Below are positions 402 to 4,406 of a stretch of DNA of 4,406 nt, in pieces. Each line of letters opens with the position of its first letter. Position 1 is the first letter of the stretch. The notes below the pieces were generated by a model. The model did not search any database. It was not told the DNA's origin and saw only the letters and a list, made by a program, of their open reading frames with translations. The position numbers and the translations under genes are program-made. The stretch covers positions 1-4,406 of the IMG/VR virus record IMGVR_UViG_2703718784_000009, one strand, 5' to 3'. The stretch is from a virus (Duplodnaviria; Heunggongvirae; Uroviricota; Caudoviricetes).

Positions 402-533
402 TCACCCCAGCATCCCCGACGAAGACAACATCATCCAGCCCAGGGAAAGAAAAATAGCAACCAGCATTAGTGAAAATGAAATGCCGACGATTACACAGAG
501 GATCTTCGCCAGCGTTATGAGCTTGTCTGACAT
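402..533 (-). CDS. hypothetical 43-aa hydrophobic peptide ([43 protein letters not shown])
   Basis: ATG at 533..531 with AGAGGA Shine-Dalgarno 6 nt upstream; stop TGA at 404..402, 7 nt before the Rz start. Almost entirely hydrophobic (one TM helix). Below the 60-aa cutoff of the ORF track. Same frame as the upstream ORF 546..728, separated only by a TGA. Confidence 0.3.
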
Positions 534-545
534 GCTTAATCCTCT

Positions 546-728
546 TCACGATTTCAACGCAATGACCAGTTTTGCCAGTCCATACAGCATCGGAGACACA
601 GCAATACCGACCGCCACCCACTTAATAGCAAAAGCCAGCGCTCTGCTGATGTCATCAGTTACAGGCGCTTTCAGTTCAAGGCCGTTTTTCATAGTCAACC
701 TCAACAGAATTCGTTTATACTTTTCCAT
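546..728 (-). CDS. hypothetical 60-aa small membrane protein, C-terminal TM helix (MEKYKRILLRLTMKNGLELKAPVTDDISRALAFAIKWVAVGIAVSPMLYGLAKLVIALKS)
   Basis: First ATG at 728..726 preceded by AAGGGAGAAC (purine-rich SD). The ORF-track start at 761 is a GTG lying inside the terminator hairpin, so the ATG is preferred. Stop TGA 548..546. Basic N-terminus, hydrophobic C-terminal segment. Confidence 0.45.
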   Translation of the reverse strand: MEKYKRILLRLTMKNGLELKAPVTDDISRALAFAIKWVAVGIAVSPMLYGLAKLVIALKS

Positions 729-761
729 GTTCTCCCTTGCCTTATCCAAGGTCAGAAACAC

Positions 762-800
762 AAAACCCCGCTTGCAGCCAACAAACGGGGTTTTTACTTT
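762..800. terminator. intrinsic (Rho-independent) terminator hairpin, bidirectional, stronger in the plus direction
   Basis: AAAACCCCG (762..770) pairs with CGGGGTTTT (786..794); loop has further internal pairing; followed on the plus strand by TTTTTACTTTTATT. On the minus strand the same hairpin is followed by UUUUGUGUUU. Lies between the endolysin stop (885) and the small ORF start (728). Confidence 0.6.
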
Positions 801-884: not shown

Positions 885-1418
885 TTATCTGTCAATTCCC
901 CAGCACGCCAGCGCACTCTCCTGGTCGCGACGGGATACCTGACCGTAACAGTTGTTTGAGCGAATACGGCAGTCTCTGCCACCGTCCTTAATCCACCAGC
1001 GAATCGCTTCGCATGCTCCCCTGCGATCACCTGCATTAATTCGTCTGTAAAACGTCGACGGGAAACACTTACCGGGACCAATGTTGTACGGACAGAATGA
1101 CGCGATCCCCGCTTTCTGGGGTTCGGTCAGCGGCACTCTGATGTTTTTCTCCACCCACGCCAGCGCCTTATCACGCTCAATGGCGTTAACCTGGTCGCAT
1201 TTTTCCTTCGACAACTTCATGCCCGGAACGACAGGTTTGCCATCCACCATGATGGCACCACGGCAGATGGTCCAGATACCTGCACCATCACGGTATGCCG
1301 TGGTGTGGTTACCTTCCTTTTCATCCAGAAACTGGTCGAGAATTTCAGGCGCAGAAGCCCCTGCGGCAATCAGCGCCAGAACGGCAGCCGACAGGCCGTA
1401 TTTGATTTTTGCGTTCAT
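885..1418 (-). CDS. R: endolysin, T4-lysozyme-like muramidase (GH24) with N-terminal signal-arrest-release (SAR) domain
   Basis: 177-aa ORF, ATG 1418..1416, stop TAA 887..885. N-terminal weakly hydrophobic Gly/Ala-rich segment (YGLSAAVLALIAAGASA) typical of SAR endolysins. Catalytic E-x8-D-x5-T spacing present (E..GNHTTAYR D GAGIW T), as in T4 lysozyme and phage 21 R. No strong SD upstream of the ATG. Confidence 0.92.
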   Translation of the reverse strand: MNAKIKYGLSAAVLALIAAGASAPEILDQFLDEKEGNHTTAYRDGAGIWTICRGAIMVDGKPVVPGMKLSKEKCDQVNAIERDKALAWVEKNIRVPLTEPQKAGIASFCPYNIGPGKCFPSTFYRRINAGDRRGACEAIRWWIKDGGRDCRIRSNNCYGQVSRRDQESALACWGIDR

Positions 1419-1529
1419 GGATATTTATCAGGATTTATCGGTTCCGAATCCCTGGATATGTTAAGCCTTCACCCCGCCAGTGGTGGGCACTGGCCAGGGT
1501 ATGTCAATCTGATAAACACAGAGGTGACT

Positions 1530-1790
1530 ATGGATTATCCAAATCTACCAAAACAAACTTTTGCTGATTTAATCGCACTCAGGCAAGCAGTCGTAGCTCT
1601 AATCAACGTGTTGCCGGATGAGGAAAAGGAATTAGTTAAAGCAATTCTTAACAGAACTGCCGCCGATTTTTCATCATTCCCACTGACAGATGACCTTGCG
1701 GACCTTCCTGAATTAATTGCAGCGTCCGCCATTAAGCTTACTGAAGAGATTTACTCTCCTCAAAAGCCTTCACAAAATTCCTGCGAGTAA
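1530..1790 (+). CDS. hypothetical 86-aa acidic protein, convergent to the late operon (MDYPNLPKQTFADLIALRQAVVALINVLPDEEKELVKAILNRTAADFSSFPLTDDLADLPELIAASAIKLTEEIYSPQKPSQNSCE)
   Basis: ATG 1530..1532 preceded by GAGGTG (1521..1526); stop TAA 1788..1790; a strong intrinsic terminator follows about 20 nt downstream (1809..1845). Helix-like amphipathic composition; AT-rich codons (about 42% GC by hand count). The longer track ORF 1305..1790 starts at a GTG with no SD. The 3' end overlaps gene 1738..2373 by 53 nt on the opposite strand. Confidence 0.55.
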   Translation: MDYPNLPKQTFADLIALRQAVVALINVLPDEEKELVKAILNRTAADFSSFPLTDDLADLPELIAASAIKLTEEIYSPQKPSQNSCE

Positions 1791-2373
1791 CTTCAATGCA
1801 ATAATCGTAAAACGCCGCGAACTGCTCATCGCGGCGTTTTTCTTCAGGCCGCTGAAGATGCTCTTTCAACCGTGAAGCGCAGCTTAGATGCGCCGCGCGA
1901 TCAAGAATAGTTTCTTTCATTTCATCTGCTGCAAGCACCTCATTTTTTGTTGGGGTGCTTTTTTTCAATTCAGCGATATAGCACTCCAGTTTTTCAATGC
2001 GTGATTCAATATCATCGTTTTCTGACCGCAATGCCGTCGGTGGCGTCTTCAGAGAACCAGTAATTATTCCCGGTAGTTTTCCTCTGTAGGTTATCAACAC
2101 ATCCTGCGCCTCTAAAATTATGGGGCGCTTTTCCGGCGACTGCTCATCCCCTTCACATAAAGCGGCAGCAATATCCATGAAAAACTGCTTCGCCTGTTTT
2201 TTCGCCTCAGCTTCGTAAAATTCCAGCGTGGCACCTTCAGTACGGTCAAGACTAATCGCCACATTTGGCAACAACAGTGACGGATACCCACCAATTTCCA
2301 GTGCCACAGTAACAGTAATCTTATCCGGGTAATTATTTATCCCTTTAACAACCAGTTCGTATTTTTTCTTCAT
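1738..2373 (-). CDS. hypothetical 211-aa soluble protein inserted between holin and endolysin; function unknown
   Basis: ATG 2373..2371 lies 4 nt after the holin stop (TAA 2380..2378) with GGGGAGAG SD inside the holin 3' end, i.e. tight translational coupling. Stop TAA 1740..1738. No TM segment; the C-terminal half looks helical/coiled-coil (DDIESRIEKLECYIAELKK...). I do not recognise the family. Confidence 0.8.
   Translation of the reverse strand: MKKKYELVVKGINNYPDKITVTVALEIGGYPSLLLPNVAISLDRTEGATLEFYEAEAKKQAKQFFMDIAAALCEGDEQSPEKRPIILEAQDVLITYRGKLPGIITGSLKTPPTALRSENDDIESRIEKLECYIAELKKSTPTKNEVLAADEMKETILDRAAHLSCASRLKEHLQRPEEKRRDEQFAAFYDYCIEVTRRNFVKAFEESKSLQ
1809..1845 (+). terminator. intrinsic terminator for the plus-strand ORF 1530..1790, embedded in the coding sequence of the minus-strand gene 1738..2373
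   Basis: AAAACGCCGCGA (1809..1820) pairs perfectly with TCGCGGCGTTTT (1829..1840), 8-nt loop, then TTTTTCTTC. Weaker in the minus direction (followed there by UUUUACG). Confidence 0.6.
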
Positions 2374-2377
2374 CGCT

Positions 2378-2593
2378 TTACTCTCCCCGCGCCGCCTTAC
2401 GCCGGTCCTCTCTGATTTTGAAATACAGGTTAGTCAGATATGTCAGCAGCCCAAACAGCAGACTCCCCAGCACGCCTATTGCCGCCCACTGAGACGGGGA
2501 AACCCTGTCCAGCAACTGCAGGAACCAGTAGCCCGTTCCCACCGCTGACGTGGTGTATGACACACCTGTTGTGATTTTTTCCATCTGGTACAT
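2378..2593 (-). CDS. S: class II holin (pinholin), phage 21 S-like, with dual-start motif
   Basis: 71-aa [74 protein letters not shown]: two TM segments plus charged C-terminal tail; closely resembles S21 / E. coli EssD as I recall them. Two in-frame ATGs (2593 and 2584). GGGAG SD upstream. Confidence 0.9.
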
Positions 2594-2668
2594 ACCCCGT
2601 CTCCCGTACTCGGAAGCTCACAACAACAAAAGGGCCACCAGCTCTTTACTGATGACCCTGACTCACCG

Positions 2669-2996: not shown

Positions 2997-3179
2997 CTAC
3001 GGAATGAGCGGATCTTCGGGTTTGCTTCCGGCTGACTGACTGGCGCTGATTTTCTCTGCGGCCCTTTTATCAATCTGCCTGCGCCAGAAATCGCGCACTG
3101 CCCTGTACCCACCCGAAAGAAGATACATAACACAGACTGCCGTACAGAAGTACAGCATCACCTGATGAACAAATGTCAT
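2997..3179 (-). CDS. hypothetical 60-aa small membrane protein, N-terminal TM helix and basic tail (MTFVHQVMLYFCTAVCVMYLLSGGYRAVRDFWRRQIDKRAAEKISASQSAGSKPEDPLIP)
   Basis: ATG 3179..3177, stop TAG 2999..2997. No SD of its own, but its ATG overlaps the TGA stop of an upstream 14-codon leader ORF (ATGA overlap), which follows another 14-codon ORF that has a perfect GGAGGT SD (see findings). N-terminal hydrophobic helix with positive residues after it. Confidence 0.45.
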   Translation of the reverse strand: MTFVHQVMLYFCTAVCVMYLLSGGYRAVRDFWRRQIDKRAAEKISASQSAGSKPEDPLIP

Positions 3180-3318: not shown

Positions 3319-4406
3319 TTATGATGATGCCCGGCTTTCGTTAACTTTGACTGTGACCGTATCAAGCAGTACCGGATACGTCGCTTTTGCCCCCGTGATA
3401 TCTGTCAGCGTCAGCGTATCTGCTGTAAAGTCATCATTTGTCCACATCACAAGGTCAAACGCCGTCTGCTCTGTACCATCAATCACCGGAACGACTCTTT
3501 CGCTGTTATTTCCCGCAAAGCGGAAAACAACCGTATGCCAGTTATGGTCAAACGCACCAAATGTACCCAGTTGTGCATTCGACGTGCCCTTGTGGTGCAT
3601 AAGATTCAGATTTGATGCATCCGTCTGAAGGAAGAATGATGCCAGCATACTGTTTGCTGCCGCGCCTGACGCCCACTGCGACACCGGCCAGTAGAGACCA
3701 AAGACAAACTGTCCGTTCACCAGTTCGCTTCCATCCGGAATTTTGAACCGTACGGCAATTTCACCCCCCTTGCTGAGAAGATTTTTTGCCTCCTCCACTG
3801 CAACAGTACGGAACATTTTCCAGGACATCAGTTTACCGGGCTGTTTTTCCAGTCGCAGCGCTTTCCGTCCACCGTCATCAGTCACAGTGCCTTTGCCGCC
3901 GGAAGCACCCCACTGCTGCTCTGTCAATGCACCATTTCCACTGTTCGCATCATATTCAGCCACCGTCCTGGTACTGCTCACGGCCTCATCATGATCAGTA
4001 CCAGCAACACCGCCATCCTGCGGTTTCTCAACATCCGGTGTCCCCGGACTGACAGGAGTTGTACCACCCGACTGCGGTGCGCTCTGCCCGGTAAGGAACG
4101 ATAATGTCCGCCCGGCGTACTGCAAAATGGCACCTGCCAGGCGGTCTGAAACAAGGCCTCTTCGCGCCCATGAACTGAAGTGCGTTTTACGATCGGCTGA
4201 CGTCCAGTTACTGGCAGTGCGTGACGCAGCGCCATAGTATCCCGCCGGGATAATGTCCCGATCTTCTGACGGCTCGTTTGTCGGCACATTCACACCATGC
4301 TCATCCGTCATCAACGGCACAAAGTGAATATTCTGCGCAGCTTTGCCTTTATACCCACCGTAAACCGCCTCATACGGCGCTGCATACCTTTCCTTCCAGT
4401 AGTACG
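3319..4406 (-). CDS. large accessory ORF of unknown function, C-terminal 362 codons only (5' end beyond the right window edge)
   Basis: Stop TAA 3321..3319; frame stays open to position 4406 (the track start at 4320 is a GTG, and the upstream codons ...YYWKERYAAPYEAVYGGYKGKAAQNIHFVPL are stop-free and protein-like). Contains a Gly/Ser/Thr/Pro-rich linker followed by a beta-rich C-terminal domain (FGLYWPVSQW...WHTVVFRFAGNNSERVVPVIDG...), possibly jelly-roll/lectin-like. It sits upstream of the holin in the operon; the antiterminator Q is not in the window. Confidence 0.85.
   Translation of the reverse strand, partial: YYWKERYAAPYEAVYGGYKGKAAQNIHFVPLMTDEHGVNVPTNEPSEDRDIIPAGYYGAASRTASNWTSADRKTHFSSWARRGLVSDRLAGAILQYAGRTLSFLTGQSAPQSGGTTPVSPGTPDVEKPQDGGVAGTDHDEAVSSTRTVAEYDANSGNGALTEQQWGASGGKGTVTDDGGRKALRLEKQPGKLMSWKMFRTVAVEEAKNLLSKGGEIAVRFKIPDGSELVNGQFVFGLYWPVSQWASGAAANSMLASFFLQTDASNLNLMHHKGTSNAQLGTFGAFDHNWHTVVFRFAGNNSERVVPVIDGTEQTAFDLVMWTNDDFTADTLTLTDITGAKATYPVLLDTVTVKVNESRASS

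What the first reader, a model, noticed from the sequence alone, without database searches (positions are those of the whole stretch)
1419..2377. AT-rich two-gene insertion splitting the pinholin / SAR-endolysin pair: candidate accessory module
Pinholins and SAR endolysins are a functionally matched pair that is normally adjacent. Between them sits about 960 bp holding the convergent gene pair (211 aa minus, 86 aa plus), visibly AT-richer than the flanking lysis genes (plus-strand ORF about 42% GC by hand count, with rare codons such as CTA, TTA, AGA, AGG), consistent with horizontal acquisition. A large soluble protein expressed late paired with a small acidic protein expressed from the opposite strand is reminiscent of effector/inhibitor or toxin/antitoxin pairs, but this is inference only.
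Basis: inference. Interest (0 to 1): 0.75.

Follow-up and report, generated by a model that had tools for sequence, protein, structure and literature searches.

The report
YdfR late gene plus reverse-strand moron
Between the holin and endolysin genes of this E. coli prophage lie a common late gene of unknown role (YdfR family) and, on the opposite strand, a small swappable accessory gene with promoter-like and terminator-like signals of its own; this is ordinary phage mosaicism, not a demonstrated toxin-antidote pair.

Summary
Window 1419-2377 carries a 211-aa minus-strand ORF and an 86-aa plus-strand ORF that converge and overlap by 53 nt. It is the most AT-rich 959 nt of the window (44.8% GC; GC3 0.35-0.44 against 0.60-0.69 for S and R).

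- The 211-aa protein is a YdfR/DUF1327 protein. This is the usual occupant of the S21-holin/SAR-lysozyme junction in Escherichia prophages, as in K-12 Qin essQ-ydfR-rrrQ, and its DNA is found in 53% of complete E. coli genomes. S and R are adjacent in only 11 of 71 holin-anchored loci.
- The variable part is a cassette of about 430 nt (1419-1846). It has a promoter-like element abutting the R start codon, an SD, orf86 (an acidic three-helix protein, PHROG 2572, Escherichia-restricted) and a hairpin with T-run. The cassette DNA also encodes the last 36 codons of YdfR.
- At least four unrelated reverse-ORF cassettes use this slot.
- orf86 relatives at about 45% identity keep the same convergent overlap, once free-standing after Rz without DUF1327.
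- The DUF1327 domain and orf86 occur independently, and neither matches any toxin-antitoxin or defence family.

Best reading: a regular late gene plus a moron. The function of orf86 is unknown. Interest is modest.

The parts
2378..2593 (-). S, 71-aa class II (phage 21-type) holin; left flank of the finding
   Evidence: PF04971, 112.5 bits. Annotated 'class II holin family protein' in RefSeq.
1738..2373 (-). ydfR-family late gene, 211 aa. It starts 4 nt after the S stop, with an SD (GGAGAG) inside the 3' end of S.
   Evidence: PF07041 DUF1327, 145.8 bits against a cutoff of 25. Named 'YdfR family protein'. Start context.
2038..2373 (-). DUF1327 N-domain (aa 1-112). Predicted beta3-alpha fold for aa 1-73, followed by a disordered linker.
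   Evidence: DNA segment x1-340 is shared at 96% with the commonest 'short' junction class. AF2 pLDDT is 66-88 for aa 1-73. 44% identical to K-12 YdfR over 77 aa.
1847..2037 (-). Helical/coiled-coil middle segment of YdfR (aa 113-175). This is a separate mosaic piece shared with the orf91-type junction.
   Evidence: x1-532 is 98.5-99% identical to L088/L089. Helices 122-173 are predicted at low confidence.
1738..1846 (-). Last 36 codons of YdfR (EEKRRDEQFAAFYDYCIEVTRRNFVKAFEESKSLQ), encoded by the orf86 cassette DNA
   Evidence: This tail accompanies orf86 in every class, including the headless L011. Homologous tails occur in the remote lineages (BLASTP E = 7e-6).
1530..1790 (+). orf86: 86-aa acidic protein, predicted three-helix bundle, PHROG 2572, no known function
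   Evidence: RefSeq WP_001625288.1 'hypothetical protein'. The exact sequence is found on at least 990 contigs.
1419..1494 (.). 76-nt element abutting the R start codon. Its first ~45 nt are shared by all junction classes and by the free-standing module that has no R next to it.
   Evidence: 64% identity to L232, the same as the CDS at 67%.
1435..1462 (+). Promoter-like TTATCG-16 nt-TATGTT reading towards orf86. This is a weak match (7 of 12), found by eye and below the scanner's threshold.
   Evidence: Hexamers are 98% and 87% conserved against 77% for the spacer, across 31 distinct versions. The spacing is kept in L232 (TTATCT-16-TATTGT) and in the short class (TATATT). Not reported by the scan.
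1521..1524 (+). Shine-Dalgarno GAGG, 5 nt before the orf86 ATG
   Evidence: Read from the sequence. All four cassette types have GAGG or AAGGA 6-9 nt before their start codons.
1811..1847 (+). Intrinsic-terminator-like hairpin (10-12 bp, GC-rich) plus TTTTTCTTC, 21 nt after the orf86 stop. On the other strand it is the reverse complement of YdfR codons KRRDEQFAAF.
   Evidence: dG -20.1 kcal/mol, z -3.7, 0 of 200 shuffles as stable. Found in L015, L232 and L174. The 8-bp core is kept in 6 of 6 distinct sequences with one compensatory pair, but the covariation is not significant.
1933..1968 (+). Second terminator-like hairpin with T-run. It is the terminator of the alternative orf91 cassette, retained in this mosaic.
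   Evidence: The same hairpin lies 23 nt after the orf91 stop in L088/L089.
885..1418 (-). R, 177-aa lysozyme with a hydrophobic N-terminus (SAR-type); right flank of the finding
   Evidence: PF00959. KD hydropathy 1.78 at residue 9.

Best explanation
The flagged stretch holds two things of different origin.

(1) ydfR. This is a DUF1327-family gene and the regular occupant of the holin/endolysin junction in phage-21-type lysis cassettes of Escherichia prophages. It is read from the Q-dependent late transcript directly after S. By homology with K-12 YdfR, its N-domain probably binds the catalytic half of RNase E and/or RNA late in infection. This functional step is inferred.

(2) A moron cassette of about 430 nt on the opposite strand (1419-1846). 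Its parts, in order, are:
- a conserved promoter-like element that abuts the R start codon;
- an SD;
- orf86, which encodes a small acidic helical protein;
- a hairpin with T-run.

The cassette was recombined into the 3' part of ydfR, so the late ORF now runs 36 codons into cassette DNA and ends inside orf86. That accounts for the 53-nt convergent overlap.

In a lysogen, orf86 would be made from its own promoter and stop at the hairpin. After induction, antiterminated late transcription runs through the cassette in the other direction to make S, YdfR and R. These expression steps are inferred.

The slot takes at least four unrelated reverse-gene cassettes, so orf86 is one of several interchangeable accessory genes. 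What it does is unknown.
For: Identity and frequency of ydfR:
- PF07041 at 145.8 bits.
- K-12 Qin has essQ-ydfR-rrrQ.
- N-domain DNA is in 2879 of 5426 complete E. coli genomes.
- 60 of 71 holin-anchored loci have a YdfR-type insert.

Mosaic breakpoints:
- N-domain x1-340 is shared with the short class.
- Cassette x532-884 is shared by all orf86 classes, including the headless L011.
- x1-532 is 99% identical to the orf91 class.

Alternative cassettes at the same slot, sharing the same first ~45 nt next to R:
- orf86 (phrog_2572), orf90 (phrog_2411), orf91 (phrog_18136) and orf104 (phrog_1853).
- They are mutually unrelated.
- Each has its own SD.

orf86 is coding. Its remote homologs P0139 and P0140 keep the same upstream element, the 59-nt overlap and the hairpin. 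One lineage carries these after Rz/Rz1 and before terS, with no DUF1327 and no R alongside.

Signals and composition:
- Hairpin dG -20.1, z -3.7.
- Hexamers are more conserved than the spacer.
- Cassette GC is 42.6% against about 54.5% for the flanking genes.

K-12 YdfR (PMC13232886): it binds Rne 1-597, co-purifies with Rne 1-598 and with RNA, residues 1-72 suffice, and it is not toxic when overexpressed.
Against: - No transcript data. The promoter-like match is weak (3 of 6 and 4 of 6) and falls below the scanner's threshold. Read on the other strand, the same hexamers give TTAACA-17-GATAAA.
- Conservation in the element falls off with distance from R, so it could reflect the translation initiation region of R or a recombination joint.
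- The L228 lineage keeps the stem but lacks a T-run. The orf90 and orf104 cassettes show no terminator in a simple search.
- Hairpin covariation is not significant.
- The RNase E link rests on a protein only 44% identical over 77 aa, and its physiological meaning is unknown even in K-12.
- The long helical C-terminal part of YdfR211 is modelled with low confidence.
Confidence: 0.6

Rival explanations
1. Effector/inhibitor or toxin-antitoxin pair. The late protein would be harmful, and the small acidic protein made from the other strand would neutralise it.
For: - orf86-like genes always lie next to, and overlap, a late-strand ORF with a homologous tail, in 145 of 149 loci, three lineages and two genomic positions.
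- The tail and orf86 have diverged in parallel.
- Opposite strands would allow different timing of expression.
Against: - The DUF1327 domain and orf86 occur independently.
- The coiled-coil plus KRRDE segment also occurs in 296-329-aa YdfR forms that have no reverse gene.
- No match to PADLOC, Pfam or NCBIfam toxin, antitoxin or defence models.
- K-12 YdfR is not toxic (PMC13232886).
- The linkage is forced by the overlap. The shared tail is encoded by DNA that also specifies the hairpin and the 3' end of orf86, so its conservation needs no protein-level explanation.
- The genes are convergent, not co-transcribed as in type II systems. Neither product is a small hydrophobic peptide as in type I systems.
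Confidence: 0.1
2. The main product of the reverse promoter is an antisense RNA. Transcription from the element next to R runs antisense into ydfR and S and silences leaky lysis-gene expression in lysogens, and the small ORFs are secondary.
For: - The element, with an even better -10 (TATATT), is kept in the commonest 'short' class, which has no reverse ORF. There it would fire straight into antisense ydfR.
- The element is shared by all cassette types.
Against: - Four cassette types each carry a well-placed SD and an ORF of 86-104 aa.
- orf86 shows protein-level constraint.
- Hairpins with T-runs 20 nt after the orf86 and orf91 stops would end transcripts before S.
- No Rfam family matches.
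- Promoter activity is unproven.
Confidence: 0.08
3. orf86 is an antisense shadow. The real gene would be the late-strand 65-aa ORF (1535-1732 -), giving a simple co-directional S-ydfR-X-R operon.
For: - The late-strand ORF is open in all three lineages (65, 63 and 115 aa).
- It starts 5 nt after the ydfR stop, or overlaps the stop of the 73-aa ORF in L232.
- Close alleles cannot separate the frames, because the third codon positions coincide.
Against: - In 5 of 5 lineage pairs the substitutions fit the orf86 frame (pos2 < pos1 < pos3). The BLOSUM62 score per site is 1.9-2.4 for orf86 against 0.95-2.0 for the open antisense frame, which also contains stops.
- The orf86 N-terminus and SD are conserved, whereas both ends of the antisense ORF vary.
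- The antisense ORF has no SD (read from the sequence) and no PHROG.
- PGAP and metagenome gene callers all call orf86.
Confidence: 0.04
4. YdfR, alone or with orf86, is a regulator of lysis timing acting on the pinholin/SAR-endolysin pathway.
For: - Its position inside the lysis cassette is fixed and it is translationally linked to S.
- The free-standing partner ORF overlaps the Rz stop in L232.
- A genetic screen cited in PMC13232886 linked ydfR to envelope integrity.
Against: - Neither protein has a TM segment.
- S and R are adjacent and presumably functional in 15% of close relatives.
- There are no homologs among characterised lysis regulators.
- A polar effect on rrrQ could explain the screen result (inference).
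Confidence: 0.12

Closest known systems
E. coli K-12 Qin prophage essQ-ydfR-rrrQ (YdfR, P76160, DUF1327)
   Same: The gene order is the same: class II holin, DUF1327 gene, lysozyme, all on the late strand. The N-domain is homologous (44% over 77 aa, with the LEFYEA motif invariant). K-12 YdfR binds the RNase E N-terminal half and co-purifies RNA (PMC13232886).
   Different: K-12 YdfR is 103 aa, with no coiled-coil or tail extension and no reverse gene. Its S-R interval is 312 nt against 959 nt here.
Phage morons, e.g. lambda bor downstream of Rz (promoter-gene-terminator units in late operons; Juhala et al. 2000, Hendrix et al. 2000, cited from my own knowledge)
   Same: - An extra gene present in some relatives and absent in others at one site.
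- Opposite orientation to the late operon.
- Deviant base composition.
- Flanked by promoter-like and terminator-like signals.
- The remote orf86 homolog P0139 sits in the bor position, between Rz and terS.
   Different: - It sits inside the S-R junction and overlaps the 3' end of a late gene, supplying that gene's last 36 codons.
- The product is a soluble acidic protein, not a lipoprotein.
- Expression from the prophage has not been shown.
Stx2-converting phage 86 orf5/orf6 (Stx2-86_gp05 YdfR family, gp06 hypothetical)
   Same: S, then a long YdfR (268 aa), then a convergent small reverse gene (104 aa), then R. The DUF1327 N-domain is 92% identical at the protein level (94% at the DNA level), and the 76-nt element next to R is the same (92%).
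   Different: The reverse gene (phrog_1853) and the YdfR C-terminal domain are unrelated to those here, and the two genes do not overlap.
Type I toxin-antitoxin loci with convergent 3'-overlapping transcripts (e.g. B. subtilis txpA/RatA, bsrG/SR4; cited from my own knowledge)
   Same: Convergent genes on a prophage that overlap at their 3' ends, so the two RNAs would be complementary.
   Different: Here both partners encode hydrophilic proteins, there is no small hydrophobic toxin, and the 'antisense' partner is protein-coding.

Membership tests
YdfR / DUF1327 (Pfam PF07041) | Sequence match to the family model above the curated threshold | tested here: met
   145.8 bits against a cutoff of 25, covering residues 1-112.
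YdfR / DUF1327 (Pfam PF07041) | Location between a class II holin and a lysozyme in a lambdoid late operon, as for K-12 ydfR | tested here: met
YdfR as RNase E N-terminal-half binder (PMC13232886) | Physical binding of residues 1-72 to Rne 1-597, and co-purification of RNA | not testable with these tools
   Only homology is shown (44% over 77 aa). Binding was measured for the K-12 protein, not for this one.
Phage moron | Gene present in some closely related phages and absent from others at the same site | tested here: met
   The orf86 cassette is in 294 of 5426 genomes against 2879 for the ydfR N-domain. Short, orf90, orf91 and orf104 classes occur at the same junction.
Phage moron | Base composition differs from the flanking genes | tested here: met
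   The cassette is 42.6% GC against 54.5% for S and R. orf86 GC3 is 0.35 against 0.60-0.69.
Phage moron | Its own promoter upstream and a factor-independent terminator downstream | tested here: inconclusive
   Terminator-like hairpin: dG -20.1, z -3.7, with a T-run, conserved in 2 of 3 lineages. The promoter is only a weak TTATCG-16-TATGTT with conserved hexamers and was not found by the scanner.
Phage moron | Expressed from the repressed prophage | not testable with these tools
   No transcript data are available.
Type II toxin-antitoxin system | Two adjacent co-directional, co-transcribed genes | tested here: not met
   The genes are convergent and overlap at their 3' ends.
Type II toxin-antitoxin system | Homology of either protein to a known toxin or antitoxin family | tested here: not met
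   No hit in Pfam, NCBIfam or PADLOC, none among PDB sequences, and none in the fold searches.
Type II toxin-antitoxin system | Toxicity of one partner that the other neutralises | not testable with these tools
   Only indirect evidence: overexpression of K-12 YdfR gives no growth defect (PMC13232886).
Type I toxin-antitoxin (3'-overlapping antisense RNA) | Small hydrophobic membrane toxin plus a non-coding antisense RNA | tested here: not met
   YdfR tail region GRAVY is -0.86 and the maximum KD hydropathy is 1.18. orf86 is protein-coding.
Known anti-phage defence systems (PADLOC-DB 2.0.0) | Match of any module protein to a defence-system model | tested here: not met
   The only hits are chance-level: Cmr5 at E = 0.018, and Aga_Nuclease at E = 0.0048 for orf91.
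DUF1823 (label given to orf86 in GenBank PV340545) | Match above Pfam's gathering score | tested here: not met
   15.3 bits against a cutoff of 25, E = 0.023.

The most novel reading that the evidence does not exclude
The orf86-family protein and the C-terminal tail of its convergent late-strand partner could be a cognate interacting pair. In this reading a factor expressed in the lysogen captures or blocks a late-expressed YdfR-type protein, which itself targets RNase E or RNA. The pair would then work as a switch specific to lysogeny or lytic growth, or as an exclusion device against related superinfecting phages. The other three cassettes in the slot would be analogous, specificity-swapped partners. 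The evidence does not exclude this. The pair is kept, with parallel divergence, in three lineages and at two positions in the late operon.
Probability: 0.1. Interest if true: 0.65.

Novelty: new member of a known kind. Interest (0 to 1): 0.35.

Why it matters
It clarifies a very common but unstudied feature of E. coli prophages.
- The holin/endolysin junction of phage-21-type lysis cassettes usually carries a DUF1327 gene, which was recently linked to RNase E.
- The site just upstream of R is a slot for at least four interchangeable small reverse-strand genes that share one promoter-like element.
- If these genes are expressed in lysogens they are candidate lysogenic-conversion or exclusion factors, and they are carried by Stx-converting phages among others.
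- The locus also shows a hairpin and the end of one gene shaping the C-terminus of a protein encoded on the other strand.

None of this changes the present understanding of lysis, and no function has been shown.

Tried and rejected
- PDB sequence profiles gave nothing.
- Rfam gave nothing significant.
- PADLOC and NCBIfam gave nothing.
- dN/dS on close orf86 alleles was uninformative. Divergence is low and the antisense frame shares third codon positions. This was resolved with remote lineages.
- BLASTP among the reverse ORFs showed no relationship.
- The 'terminase small subunit' names in the 90% cluster of YdfR211 are a clustering artefact; P0160 is unrelated.
- The two long proteins in the exhaustive search (P0141, P0144) are repeat-driven noise.
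- Literature searches for DUF1327, the PhiR phages, the accession numbers and the PHROG ids found nothing on this locus except the RNase E paper.
- I first read 1419-1494 as merely the leader of R. I revised this when the same element turned up upstream of P0139, where no R is adjacent.
- I first read the hairpin at 1933-1960 as the orf86 terminator. I rejected this because it is absent from the commonest orf86 class and belongs to the orf91 cassette.
Full report
**What the window is.** All long ORFs lie on the minus strand and form the late/lysis region of a lambdoid prophage.
- The C-terminal part of a SASA-family esterase (DUF6645, 3319-4320).
- DUF1378 (2997-3179) and DUF826 (2669-2959).
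- A 71-aa phage-21-type class II holin S (2378-2593).
- A 211-aa ORF (1738-2373).
- A 177-aa lysozyme R with a hydrophobic N-terminus (885-1418).
- Two small ORFs, then Rz (1-394).

The only convincing plus-strand gene is an 86-aa ORF (1530-1790). RefSeq and GenBank records that are 99-99.8% identical annotate the same layout.

**Observation check.** They converge and overlap by 53 nt.
- The stretch 1419-2377 is 44.8% GC. This is the lowest 959-nt stretch in the window; only 1.2% of positions are as low. S is 54.6% and R is 54.5%.
- GC3 is 0.35 for orf86 and 0.44 for the 211-aa gene, against 0.69 for S and 0.60 for R.
- orf86 is acidic (pI 4.3). The 211-aa protein has no TM-grade segment.

**What the 211-aa gene is.** It is a YdfR/DUF1327 protein: PF07041 at 145.8 bits over residues 1-112. 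It starts 4 nt after the S stop, behind an SD that lies inside S, so it is a late gene.
- This is the normal state of the junction. K-12 Qin has essQ-ydfR-rrrQ.
- DNA of the N-domain is found in 2879 of 5426 complete E. coli genomes, at 6142 places. The holin is found at 8935 places in 2450 genomes.
- In a locus set anchored only on the holin, S and R are adjacent in 11 of 71 loci, and 60 of 71 carry a YdfR-type insert.
- The family is confined to Escherichia, Shigella and a few Salmonella. It is strongly modular, with lengths of 103-333 aa, a constant N-domain, and variable coiled-coil segments and C-terminal domains.
- The only functional data are for K-12 YdfR. It binds the N-terminal half of RNase E in two-hybrid assays and co-purifies with it. 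Residues 1-72 suffice. It brings down RNA, and it is not toxic when overproduced (PMC13232886). The window protein is 44% identical to it over 77 aa.

**Where the real insertion is.** Pairwise DNA comparison of junction classes gives clean breakpoints. Coordinates x run in the late direction, and window coordinate = 2378 - x.
- x1-340 is the N-domain. It is shared at 96% with the commonest class, a 399-nt junction holding a 114-aa YdfR and nothing else.
- x1-532 is 99% identical to a class that carries a different reverse gene (orf91).
- x532-884 (window 1494-1846) is the orf86 cassette. It is shared by every orf86 class, including L011, where the DUF1327 domain is missing and a 67-aa 'headless' ORF takes its place.
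- x884-959 (window 1419-1494) is common to nearly all classes.

The cassette therefore supplies orf86 and also the last 36 codons of the 211-aa protein. It occurs in 294 of 5426 genomes at 80% coverage or more. The exact window-type combination occurs in 24.

**Is orf86 a gene?** A late-strand 65-aa ORF lies antisense to it and is open in all lineages, and close alleles cannot separate the two frames. An exhaustive profile search found remote relatives P0139 and P0140, 41-49% identical.
- On these, substitutions follow pos2 < pos1 < pos3 in 5 of 5 lineage pairs.
- The orf86 frame has no stops and the best BLOSUM62 score per site of the six frames.
- The N-terminus and SD are conserved.
- The antisense ORF has variable ends and no PHROG.

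orf86 is therefore coding. It belongs to PHROG 2572 (unknown function) and has no Pfam hit above threshold. The 'DUF1823' label in one GenBank record scores 15.3 bits against a cutoff of 25. It is predicted to be a three-helix bundle (pLDDT 66), with no structural neighbour.

**The module travels as a unit.** In 145 of 149 loci an orf86-like gene overlaps the 3' end of a late-strand ORF, by 53 nt in the orf86 lineage and 59 nt in both remote lineages.
- In L228 the arrangement is S, then a 243-aa YdfR with a diverged tail, then a P0140-like gene, then R.
- In L232 and L174 the pair is free-standing: a 73-aa ORF whose start overlaps the Rz stop, plus P0139. It lies between Rz/Rz1 and the small terminase gene in an otherwise different lysis cassette, without DUF1327 and without R next to it.
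- The partner tails are significantly similar (E = 7e-6).
- The ~75-nt region upstream of the orf86-like start is conserved too, at 64% between the window and L232. That equals the 67% of the CDS, although the two contexts are unrelated.

**Signals.**
- The first ~45 nt next to R are shared by all seven junction types examined. They contain TTATCG (1435-1440), 16 nt, then TATGTT (1457-1462). The sequences diverge just after the -10-like hexamer, and each cassette then brings its own SD and start codon.
- Across 31 distinct versions the hexamers are 98% and 87% conserved, against 77% for the spacer.
- The match to the sigma-70 consensus is weak and the scanner does not report it. The same hexamers can be read on the other strand. 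This is therefore a candidate promoter, not a demonstrated one.
- Twenty-one nt after the orf86 stop there is a 10-12-bp GC-rich hairpin followed by TTTTTCTTC (1811-1847). Its dG is -20.1 kcal/mol, z is -3.7, and no shuffle is as stable.
- That hairpin is present in the other orf86 class and in the P0139 lineage. The P0140 lineage keeps the stem through one compensatory pair but has no T-run, and covariation is not significant with three lineages.
- The hairpin is the reverse complement of the YdfR codons KRRDEQFAAF. Part of the 'tail homology' may therefore be imposed by the hairpin and by the 3' end of orf86, rather than by selection on the tail peptide.
- A second hairpin (1933-1960) is the terminator of the orf91 cassette, where it lies 23 nt after the orf91 stop. 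It remains in this mosaic. This suggests the window type arose when the orf86 cassette replaced orf91.

**A slot, not a pair.** At least four unrelated reverse genes of 86-104 aa occupy the same place behind the same element: orf86, orf90 (phrog_2411), orf91 (phrog_18136) and orf104 (phrog_1853, in Stx2-converting phage 86).
- Three of them overlap the YdfR 3' end.
- The 130-aa C-terminal domain of long YdfR forms occurs both with and without orf104.
- The coiled-coil plus KRRDE segment occurs in 296-329-aa forms with no reverse gene.

**Interpretation.** The best-supported reading is a regular late gene (ydfR) plus a moron cassette: promoter-like element, SD, small gene and terminator-like hairpin, with deviant composition and patchy distribution. 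The cassette was recombined into the 3' part of ydfR.
- Shown: the anatomy, the mosaic boundaries, coding status, distribution, and the presence and conservation of the signals.
- Inferred: expression of orf86 in the lysogen, termination at the hairpin, and an RNase E or RNA role for the N-domain.
- The toxin-antitoxin or effector-inhibitor idea is not supported. The DUF1327 domain and orf86 occur independently, nothing matches known families, the K-12 homolog is not toxic, and the invariable linkage of orf86 to a partner tail is enforced by the physical overlap.
- It is not excluded that orf86 and the tail interact. This is the most novel reading left open.

**Novelty and score.** Both proteins are already catalogued as hypothetical families, and the kind of element (a moron in a lambdoid late operon) is well known. 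I found no description of this slot, of the shared element, or of the conserved convergent overlap. I rate it a new member of a known kind, of modest interest (0.35).

Noticed in passing
window 762-794 (-): A strong terminator-like hairpin (14 pairs, followed by a T-rich tail) on the late strand, just downstream of R and before the next small ORF. It sits inside what should be one antiterminated late transcript.
   Followed up: partly
window 402-533 (-) and 546-761 (-): Two small ORFs between R and Rz with TM-grade hydrophobic stretches: 43 aa with KD 2.93, and 71 aa with KD 1.90 at its C-terminus. They have no Pfam hit and RefSeq annotates them as hypothetical proteins. They may be membrane peptides of the lysis cassette.
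   Followed up: no
window 2631-2659 (-): A terminator-like hairpin (12 pairs) between DUF826 and the holin gene, on the late strand.
   Followed up: no
L001 6614-6955 and L165 2960-3295 (RefSeq NZ_CM129862.1, NZ_CP074928.1): In genomes that carry orf86, PGAP marks ydfR as a pseudogene 'missing C-terminus'. In L001 the 211-aa ORF was checked and is intact, with the N- and C-parts contiguous at 99-100% identity; L165 carries the same annotation but its ORF was not checked. The pseudogene call seems to come from the overlap with orf86 or from partial model alignment.
   Followed up: partly
L244 2800-3276 and similar loci (590-600-nt junction class, 10 of 71 loci): 'Headless' YdfR forms: a 158-aa ORF that begins at the KRRDE segment and continues into the 130-aa C-terminal domain, with the DUF1327 N-domain deleted. 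The C-terminal modules therefore persist without the family-defining domain.
   Followed up: partly
L017, S-R interval of 1654 nt: An IS1-like element (InsA/InsB-type ORFs) is inserted in ydfR between the N-domain and the coiled-coil segment.
   Followed up: no
P0026, P0029, P0116 (long YdfR proteins, 305-333 aa): Two unrelated C-terminal domains of unknown function follow the same KRRDEQFAAFYDYC junction: 'EWECNRPSF...LTYLKVRI' and 'SANSEILDNF...FFLKVER'. Neither has a Pfam match.
   Followed up: no
L170, L172 (genome contigs): K-12-type ydfR loci turn up in MAGs labelled Veillonella parvula and Bacillota. These are most likely binning contamination by Escherichia prophage DNA.
   Followed up: no
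protein cluster of YdfR211: The 90%-identity cluster that holds the 211-aa protein also contains unrelated proteins named 'terminase small subunit' (for example P0160). This is a clustering artefact of the database.
   Followed up: yes
L232 4965-5597 (-): In the phage that carries the free-standing module, a 210-aa ORF sits between the endolysin and Rz/Rz1, in the position where annotated Stx phages carry the Ant gene between R and Rz. From its sequence I take it to be antirepressor-like, but it was not scanned against any family library.
   Followed up: no
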